Shown in pieces: positions 40,431-41,350 of a stretch of 64,000 nucleotides of DNA. The stretch is taken from contig OZ024742.1 of NCBI GenBank assembly GCA_964016885.1, positions 239,816,001-239,880,000 of the forward strand. Reading direction: 5' to 3'. Position 1 is the first letter of the stretch; each line of letters starts with the position of its first letter. Source of the stretch: Eledone cirrhosa. Taxonomy: Eukaryota. The position numbers and the translations under genes are program-made. Below the pieces are notes generated by a model, which was not told the origin of the DNA, made no database searches, and was given only the letters and a program-made list of their open reading frames with translations.

Positions 40431-41350
40431 TATATATATATATATATATATATATATATATATATATATATGTAAAGTTATATTTAAAATTGTTGGGTTA
40501 CAACTAGTAAATATTTATAACTGATATAAAAGCACTCGACAAATATACATATATATACATATATATACATATATATATATATACATATATATACATATAT
40601 ATACATATATATACATATATATACATATATATATATATATATACATATATATACATATATATACATATATCATCATCATCATCATCATTTCATTTTACGT
40701 CCGTTTTTCCCTGCTTGCAAGGGTGGGACGGGAACTGATTCTGGCTTGATTTCTACAGCTGGATGCCCTTCCTAACACCAACCTCATTTACAGTGAGTGC
40801 TGGGTGCTTTTTTGCCGTGGCACCTCCACGACCACTTTGCAGTGGAATGATAGAGACCCCAGTCCCTATCATCTCATTTCTACAGCTGAGTAAACTGGAG
40901 CAATGTGAAATAAAGTCTCTTGCTCAAGGAAACAACACATCACCCGGTCTGAGAATTGAACTCACAACCTTTCGATTGCAAGGCCAATGCTCTAACCACT
41001 AAGCCATGTGCCTCCATATATATATATATATACATATATATATATATATATATATACATATATATACATATATATATATATATATACATATATATAAATA
41101 TATATATATACATATACATATATATACATATATACATATATATATACATATATATACATATATATACATATATACATATATATACATATATATACATATA
41201 TATATATATATATATACATATATATATATATATATATATACATATATATATATATATATATATATATATATACATATATATATACATATATATATATATA
41301 TATATACATATATATACACACACACACATACACATACATATACATATATA
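40430..41350. repeat. Compound (TA)n/(TATACA)n microsatellite split by a SINE
   Basis: Seen directly. Confidence 0.95.
40671..41015 (-). mobile_element. Young mosaic tRNA-derived SINE with RTE-derived tail (copy 1)
   Basis: A box TGGCTTAGTGG, B box GAGTTCAATTC, CORE-like CCTTGAGCAAG body, RTE tail and (GAT)n. Near-identical to 53621-53965. Confidence 0.9.

What the first reader, a model, noticed from the sequence alone, without database searches (positions are those of the whole stretch)
40671..41015. Mosaic SINE built from parts of both intact LINEs in this window
Read on the minus strand, the SINE has five parts in order. (1) A tRNA head. (2) A CORE-like body. (3) A short gatagggactgggtctctatcatt piece matching the start of the tail monomer of the 3428-type SINE. 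(4) About 100 nt almost identical to the LINE B 3' UTR at 62568-62717 (gtggaggtgccacggcaaaaaagcacccagc...gttaggaagggcatccagctgtagaaatcaagccaga..cagttcc), lacking one ~48-bp unit. (5) An abrupt switch at a 2-nt 'cc' microhomology to the last ~40 nt of LINE A at 57819-57860 (cgtcccacccttgcaagcagggaaaa.cggacgtaaaatga). A second near-identical copy at 53621-53965 shows it amplifies as a unit. SINEs sharing 3' tails with partner LINEs is established. The inference is a recent tail swap from LINE B to LINE A machinery, with both donor families present intact nearby.
Basis: partly seen in the sequence, partly recalled or inferred. Interest (0 to 1): 0.78.

Follow-up and report, generated by a model that had tools for sequence, protein, structure and literature searches.

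The report
SINE that swapped its tail twice
This short jumping DNA element is a patchwork of an older element and the ends of two longer jumping genes, and the genome still holds its earlier versions, which show it changed its tail twice, likely switching the enzyme that copies it, with the newest version about 14 times commoner than the one before.

Summary
The 345-bp element is a tRNA-head, CORE-like SINE. Exact genome-wide pattern counts give about 20,100 copies ending in the LINE A tail, 1,442 with the same 5' part ending in the LINE B tail, and 1,454 hits for a third, older tail (C) on the same head. Head substitutions nest C -> B -> A, and A-tailed copies are less diverged than B-tailed ones (p=0.007). 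The module donor was an older LINE B subfamily, not the young LINE B in the window. Against that donor the B/A junction has a 5-nt overlap (CCCGT), not 2 nt. Loss of the tandem unit occurs in both tail types. The two LINEs nearby are younger than the junction, so their closeness is incidental; the LINE B copy has a private stop. No third LINE natively carries module plus A tail; 44 LINE B bodies with an A tail do not form one clade. LINE B is still young and abundant, so partner extinction did not force the swap. SINE tail exchange is well known; a full set of intermediates in one genome is the useful part. Mobilisation by LINE A is inferred, not tested.

The parts
40941..41015 (-). tRNA-derived head (Pol III promoter presumed)
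   Evidence: Rfam tRNA hit 40949-41006, E 0.00086, below gathering score; shared with C- and B-tailed relatives
40873..40940 (-). CORE-like body
   Evidence: By eye 15 of 17 nt identical to the CORE motif of WALLSI2 printed in the supplement of PMC5786205; not aligned by a tool
40846..40872 (-). 27-nt hairpin, remnant of the parent SINE's C-type tail
   Evidence: Same piece followed by the C tail in 11 of 20 loci; folds as a hairpin
40728..40845 (-). Module from the 3' UTR of an older LINE B subfamily, one tandem unit lost
   Evidence: Alignments to window LINE B and to L162; two-unit variants
40728..40732 (-). 5-nt overlap (CCCGT) at the B/A junction
   Evidence: Present in 19 of 30 B-tailed SINEs (the other 11 read CCTGT, a CpG site), in L162 and in LINE A
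40690..40732 (-). LINE A 3' end, the whole predicted terminal stem-loop
   Evidence: 42 of 43 nt identical to 57818-57860; fold predicted, weak z -1.4 to -1.9
40671..40689 (-). (ATG)n simple-repeat end, inserted in a TA-rich microsatellite
   Evidence: Sequence; flank survey
53621..53965 (-). Second copy of the A-tailed one-unit SINE
   Evidence: 96.6% identical
54775..57855 (+). LINE A ORF (1026 aa stop to stop; endonuclease, RT, PHD); young copy of the tail-donor family, 5'-truncated at about 54320
54670..54722 (+). Diverged homolog of the module in LINE A's 5' UTR (83%)
59405..62479 (+). LINE B ORF (1024 aa; private stop 16 codons early); young descendant of the module-donor lineage
   Evidence: 66% identical to LINE A protein
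62565..62810 (+). LINE B 3' UTR: two-unit module and B tail
3428..3700 (+). Old, diverged relative of the C-tailed parent SINE (boundaries approximate)
   Evidence: Alignment to L336 hairpin and C tail

Best explanation
The element is a tRNA-CORE-like SINE whose 3' end was replaced twice, first from a C-type tail to the 3' UTR of an older LINE B and then from the LINE B tail to the last 43 nt of LINE A, likely by reverse-transcriptase template switching, and it is likely now copied by LINE A's protein. Shown: the three forms, their shared head and hairpin, their counts, nested head substitutions and the junction overlap. Inferred: step 1, an RT copying LINE B' RNA from its 3' end jumped onto the parent SINE RNA just after the hairpin (no overlap seen); step 2, an RT primed on LINE A RNA copied the terminal stem-loop and jumped to the B-tailed SINE RNA at CCCGT; step 3, tandem units were lost repeatedly and the one-unit A-tailed form expanded most. 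Also inferred: Pol III transcription from the head and recognition of the terminal stem-loop by LINE A's protein.
For: Counts of exact two-anchor matches: one-unit A 18,416, two-unit A 1,681, one-unit B 831, two-unit B 611; C-tail 30-mer 1,454, with 29 of 30 loci on the same head. Head position 33: G in 21 of 22 C and 20 of 22 B, C in 25 of 28 A (G/C calls only; Fisher p 8e-9 for B vs A); 5' GAAGG vs GGAGG 14:2 in B and 1:21 in A. One older SINE copy with another tail (L172) has the C/B states at the 5' end and position 33. Non-CpG divergence over head, CORE and hairpin: C 3.14%, 2B 2.62%, 1B 3.39%, 2A 2.29%, 1A 1.39%; B vs A p=0.007. 27 of 30 B-tailed SINEs carry the old B' tail, 3 the young one. 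The A tail is 42/43 identical to LINE A but about 80% to the homologous end of B, so deletion alone cannot explain it. Insertion signature changed: TA-run at the 3' flank in 0 of 15 C-tailed vs 34 of 55 A-tailed SINEs, 19 of 30 LINE A, background 7.5%. Intact LINE A ORFs exist: window, L381, L385 (2 of 10 fetched).
Against: No mobilisation test. LINE A and LINE B leave the same insertion signature (19/30 vs 15/29, p=0.43) and their terminal stem-loops are about 80% alike and fold alike, so either protein might copy the SINE. Age order is only partly resolved: over head plus module, B vs A pooled p=0.10 and 2B equals 2A; C vs B p=0.49. Samples are 10-30 loci per class, the first on contig 1, and need exact anchors, which under-counts old copies and inflates the A:B ratio. 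Position 66 is a CpG site and L172 has the A-type base there. 3 of 16 one-unit A copies scored G/C keep G33, and a few B-tailed copies have A-type heads, so recombination blurs the series. The outgroup is one copy.
Confidence: 0.82

Rival explanations
1. The tail sequence changed but the machinery did not: LINE A and LINE B proteins both recognise the shared stem-loop and (ATG)n end, and the A-tailed form expanded through a lucky source locus or a shorter RNA.
For: Tails about 80% identical with similar predicted folds; proteins 66% identical; same TA-rich targets; LINE B still young and abundant, 10,771 3' ends, 13 of 20 sampled 98.6-99.8% identical to the window copy; derived head changes arose with the A tail and could themselves raise activity.
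Against: B-tailed SINEs kept a terminal stretch matching active LINE B yet stayed about 14-fold rarer; the swap took exactly the whole predicted stem-loop; LINE A kept this tail across subfamilies 82-100% identical.
Confidence: 0.3
2. The A tail reached the SINE through a LINE B/LINE A chimera, or a third LINE carrying module plus A tail is the real partner.
For: 44 exact matches to a LINE B 3' UTR followed by the A tail, most of the 20 examined on B'-age bodies.
Against: They are 0.4% of such LINE B ends (44 of 10,815); 14 with enough ORF sequence do not form one clade (4 changes; 0% of 200 bootstrap trees with one origin; starred branches force at least 2); 9 of 20 start their end with TGAAATGA as many SINEs do, while 30 of 30 young LINE A copies start TGATGAT; of 50 unselected module/A-tail junctions 40 had a SINE 5' part, 5 were truncated, 4 at a locus edge, 1 a SINE end nested in a LINE A tail, none a native LINE. 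A single founding chimera as go-between cannot be excluded.
Confidence: 0.08
3. B-tailed SINEs are back-recombinants of the abundant A-tailed SINE with LINE B RNA, so the order is A first and the B form is a by-product.
For: Such recombinants occur: 3 of 30 B-tailed SINEs have the young B tail and 2 have an A-type 5' end; two-unit B and two-unit A copies are equally diverged over head plus module.
Against: Most B-tailed copies share head states with the C-tailed parent, not with A-tailed copies (p 8e-9 and 2e-7), and carry the old B' tail (27 of 30).
Confidence: 0.05
4. Classic bipartite origin: the SINE took the 5' UTR and 3' end of one internally deleted RTE (LINE A), as in WALLSI2.
For: LINE A has a homolog of the module in its 5' UTR (83%) and this architecture is common (PMC5786205).
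Against: The module is 92-98% identical to LINE B 3' UTRs, with their tandem units, and only 83% to LINE A's 5' UTR; the B-tailed intermediate exists. The bipartite route may apply one level deeper, to how LINE B got its 3' UTR.
Confidence: 0.03

Closest known systems
tRNA-CORE-RTE SINEs with exchanged tails: WALLSI2, SINE2-2_ACar, IdioSINE2, ERE4B (Kojima 2018, PMC5786205; main text parts 1-4 of 5 and supplement passages read)
   Same: tRNA head, CORE body, LINE-derived middle, LINE 3' end; tail replacement leaving a remnant of the earlier LINE-derived part (IdioSINE2 keeps 23 bp).
   Different: There the middle comes from RTE 5' UTRs. Here it comes directly from the 3' UTR of a second, still active LINE, and precursor forms survive in hundreds of copies with a base-exact junction.
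Module-exchange model of SINE survival (MetaSINEs PMC4824008, elephant shark SINEs PMC5499810, bivalve SINEs PMC11481361, mollusc SINEs PMC4758252; passages read)
   Same: 3' tails change by template switching or recombination, giving new LINE partners.
   Different: Those passages frame the switch as escape from a silenced partner or tracking the dominant LINE, mostly from comparisons of consensus sequences. Here the former partner's lineage remains young and abundant.
Octopus tRNA-derived SINEs OR1/OR2 (Ohshima and Okada 1994; seen only as citations in PMC4824008 and PMC4758252)
   Same: CORE-type tRNA SINEs reported from octopus; this genome looks octopod to me (recalled repeat features, not tested).

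Membership tests
tRNA-derived SINE (SINE2) | tRNA-related head | tested here: met
   Rfam tRNA E 0.00086, 28.1 bits, below the 29-bit gathering score; not a tRNA gene
tRNA-derived SINE (SINE2) | Short, interspersed, high copy, shared 5' and 3' ends | tested here: met
   18,416 + 1,681 exact matches; 12 junctions in 98 evenly spaced 10-kb stretches, about 37,000 copies (95% range 19,000-64,000)
tRNA-derived SINE (SINE2) | 3' end shared with a LINE and simple-repeat end | tested here: met
   42/43 nt identical to LINE A end, then (ATG)n
tRNA-derived SINE (SINE2) | Target-site duplications | tested here: inconclusive
   Non-simple duplications of 7 nt or more in 11 of 55 A-tailed copies, most lying in TA repeats; 10 of 15 C-tailed copies
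tRNA-derived SINE (SINE2) | RNA polymerase III transcription | not testable with these tools
   No run on record as RNA was listed
CORE-SINE | CORE domain after the head | tested here: inconclusive
   15 of 17 nt match by eye to the WALLSI2 CORE motif in the PMC5786205 supplement; no tool alignment to a CORE consensus; defining paper not held
Bipartite RTE-derived SINE (5' UTR + 3' end of one RTE) | Middle part taken from the 5' UTR of the tail-donor LINE | tested here: not met
   Middle is 92-98% like LINE B 3' UTRs, 83% like LINE A 5' UTR
RTE-clade LINE (LINE A, LINE B) | Single ORF with AP endonuclease and RT, microsatellite 3' end | tested here: met
RTE-clade LINE (LINE A, LINE B) | RT phylogeny within the RTE clade | not tested
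   No named reference LINEs were available; homolog search gave mostly unnamed proteins. The RTE label rests on architecture and recall.
SINE-LINE partner pair (SINE with LINE A) | Mobilisation in trans depending on the shared tail | not testable with these tools
   Needs a cell assay; insertion signature does not separate LINE A from LINE B

The most novel reading that the evidence does not exclude
A SINE changed partner LINE twice in a short span, the second time leaving a partner that was and is active, and gained a large expansion by it; it also passes the LINE A tail back to LINE B copies through the shared module, so the SINE acts as a bridge for tail exchange between two LINE families. 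Its body would trace back through LINE B's 3' UTR to an RTE 5'-UTR element.
Probability: 0.3. Interest if true: 0.7.

Novelty: new variant of a known kind. Interest (0 to 1): 0.5.

Why it matters
Tail exchange is the standard explanation for how SINE lineages outlive LINE families, but in the papers I read it is mostly inferred from consensus sequences of distant families. Here parent, intermediate and product, both donor LINE lineages with intact ORFs, and a base-exact junction sit in one genome. That makes two open points testable with natural sequences: whether a 43-nt tail change alters partner specificity between related LINEs, and whether swaps are favoured by advantage rather than partner loss. 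It also shows one way a SINE body forms, as leftovers of earlier tails.

Tried and rejected
Unmasked self-BLAST was swamped by TA repeats; redone masked. A fuzzy search for the hairpin timed out; a simpler one worked. Partner LINE of the C tail not found: none of 30 C-tail loci lay behind a LINE ORF and a relaxed search of 2.05 Mb of held sequence gave only SINE-like relatives. In-register B/A crossover at the homologous second CCCGT: 0 in held loci. Rfam gave no family for the module; its fold is no better than shuffles (z -0.2); the idea of a ribozyme was dropped for lack of support. Four module motifs were absent from the PMC5786205 supplement text (line breaks or figures could hide them) and one motif search of papers gave two unrelated hits. 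Expression: no RNA holder listed. Contigs of four runs laid on the SINE were too short to bridge the junction in other organisms. No earlier findings of this scan for this genome. In the 98 evenly spaced stretches all 10 copies with head and hairpin were A-tailed; the B and C forms were found only by targeted patterns. Rows dropped: L355 and L371 (duplicates of L354) and truncated L369 from the C class; copies with under 60 aligned sites; L065-L090 and copies with under 300 nt of ORF from the tree.

Full report
Observation. The element at 41015->40671 and its copy at 53965->53621 are 96.6% identical. The head scores weakly as tRNA (E 0.00086, below the gathering score). The next 65 nt resemble CORE: by eye 15 of 17 nt match the WALLSI2 motif printed in the supplement of PMC5786205. 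A 27-nt hairpin follows, then 118 nt like LINE B's 3' UTR (92%), then the last 43 nt of LINE A (42 of 43 identical) and (ATG)n. Both LINEs carry one ORF of about 1,025 aa with endonuclease, RT and PHD domains and are 66% identical as proteins. I call them RTE-like from architecture; no phylogeny was run. The genome is 3.0 Gb and looks octopod to me from recalled repeat features; that is untested.

It is a family. The junction query gave 1,993 candidates, the 40 scored all 99% or more identical. Exact two-anchor patterns over the whole genome gave 18,416 one-unit and 1,681 two-unit copies with the A tail. In 98 evenly spaced 10-kb stretches there were 12 module/A-tail junctions, about 37,000 copies (19,000-64,000).

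The intermediates exist. The same 5' anchor followed by the LINE B tail gave 611 two-unit and 831 one-unit copies, an A:B ratio of 14. A search for the hairpin not followed by C gave 421 hits; 11 of 20 loci were a parent SINE with the same head, CORE and hairpin but a third tail ending in (AC)n or (AAC)n. A 30-mer of that C tail has 1,454 hits, and 29 of 30 loci carry the SINE head. So the hairpin is the stump of tail C.

Order of events. Head substitutions nest. C and B share GAAGG at the 5' end and G at position 33 with an older SINE copy that has yet another tail (L172); A-tailed copies have GGAGG and C33 (B vs A p 2e-7 and 8e-9). One further change separates C (16 G, 7 A) from B and A (all A where scored). 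Non-CpG divergence over head, CORE and hairpin is 3.14% (C, n=27), 2.62% and 3.39% (B, n=20 and 7), 2.29% and 1.39% (A, n=17 and 20); B vs A p=0.007, C vs B p=0.49. Over head plus module the pooled B vs A contrast is weaker (p=0.10) and the two-unit forms are equal. The swaps therefore came close together and the one-unit A form expanded last. Samples are small, come from the start of contig 1 and need exact anchors, which under-counts older copies.

Donor and junction. Older LINE B ends (L162, L126) match the SINE better than the window's LINE B, including CCACTGCAAAG and the extra A. 27 of 30 B-tailed SINEs carry this older tail. Against it the B/A junction overlaps by CCCGT, also present at the start of LINE A's last 43 nt. 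The captured piece is the whole predicted terminal stem-loop, though the fold is only weakly better than shuffles, and it is coding sequence of LINE A's ORF end. Template switching is my inference from this overlap and from the mechanism proposed in PMC4824008 and PMC5499810 (passages). The window's LINE copies belong to very young subfamilies (top 40 hits 100% for A, 99-100% for B), younger than the SINE junction, so they are not the donors. The window's LINE B has a private stop (1 of 66). Intact ORFs were found in 2 of 10 fetched LINE A loci and 1 of 10 LINE B loci.

Third-LINE test. LINE B 3' UTRs end in the B tail in 10,771 matches and in the A tail in 44. The 20 examined sit on bodies 67-98% identical to the window's LINE B; 14 placed in a tree do not form a clade; 9 of 20 have the TGAAATGA end seen in SINEs and in none of 30 young LINE A copies. 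I read them as sporadic recombinants with the SINE. Of 50 unselected junctions none lay on a native LINE body.

Machinery. C-tailed copies have 7-14-nt target duplications (10 of 15) and avoid TA runs (0 of 15); A-tailed copies, LINE A and LINE B all favour TA runs (34 of 55, 19 of 30, 15 of 29; background 7.5%). This supports a change of enzyme from C to the A/B group but cannot separate A from B (p=0.43). LINE B is young and abundant (13 of 20 sampled copies 98.6-99.8% identical to the window copy), so loss of the partner does not explain the second swap. Use of LINE A is the likeliest reading, untested.

Known context. Kojima 2018 (PMC5786205; main text parts 1-4 of 5, supplement by search) lists tRNA-CORE-RTE SINEs and tail replacement with remnants, with middles from RTE 5' UTRs. 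Module exchange is general (passages of PMC4824008, PMC4758252, PMC5499810, PMC11481361, PMC3531059). Passages of two octopus repeat papers (PMC13282606, PMC9115989) did not describe this element. Eight paper searches gave no report of this series, but Ohshima and Okada 1994, Gilbert and Labuda 1999, Repbase, Dfam and the octopus papers' supplements were not seen, so the family may already be catalogued.

Verdict. Real, and the tail swap is supported with direct intermediates; a new variant of a known process. Interest 0.5: not surprising in kind, but unusually complete and testable.

Noticed in passing
window 54670-54722; L167:6744-6796; window 62565-62717, 43188-43353, 36791-36997, 24281-24420, 28865-29118: The same tandem module lies in the 5' UTR of LINE A and in the 3' UTR of LINE B and older B-like LINEs. 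LINE B's lineage may have captured a 5'-UTR-plus-tail piece as its 3' UTR.
   Followed up: partly
window 57878-59165: A roughly 400-bp tandem repeat between the two LINEs continues into LINE B's 5' end in four other loci (L227, L298, L081, L312), so it is probably a monomer array in LINE B's 5' UTR. LINE A's (ATG)n end abuts it directly and similar satellite-like DNA flanks the pair on both sides.
   Followed up: partly
L381:501-4981, L385:484-4961; window 54320-54600: Young LINE A is about 4.5 kb long, with a long low-complexity 5' region shared by two independent copies; the window copy is cut at about 54320.
   Followed up: partly
L250-L269: LINE B bodies ending in the A tail; L255 returns to the B tail after a short A patch and L250 runs into an inverted SINE head, suggesting repeated template jumps or conversion.
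   Followed up: partly
L172:9092 (-), L179:3412, window 8077-8173: A further SINE family has a related head and CORE but a fourth 3' part, so this head has carried at least four tails.
   Followed up: no
L173:7759-8100, L079:3289-3500: Older elements carry five or more tandem copies of the module unit before a B-like tail.
   Followed up: no
window 36791-40068 (-) and 43188-44896 (-): Older, broken B-like LINE copies about 75% identical to LINE B.
   Followed up: no
window 45021-45288: An inverted repeat of about 270 bp, 89% self-complementary.
   Followed up: no
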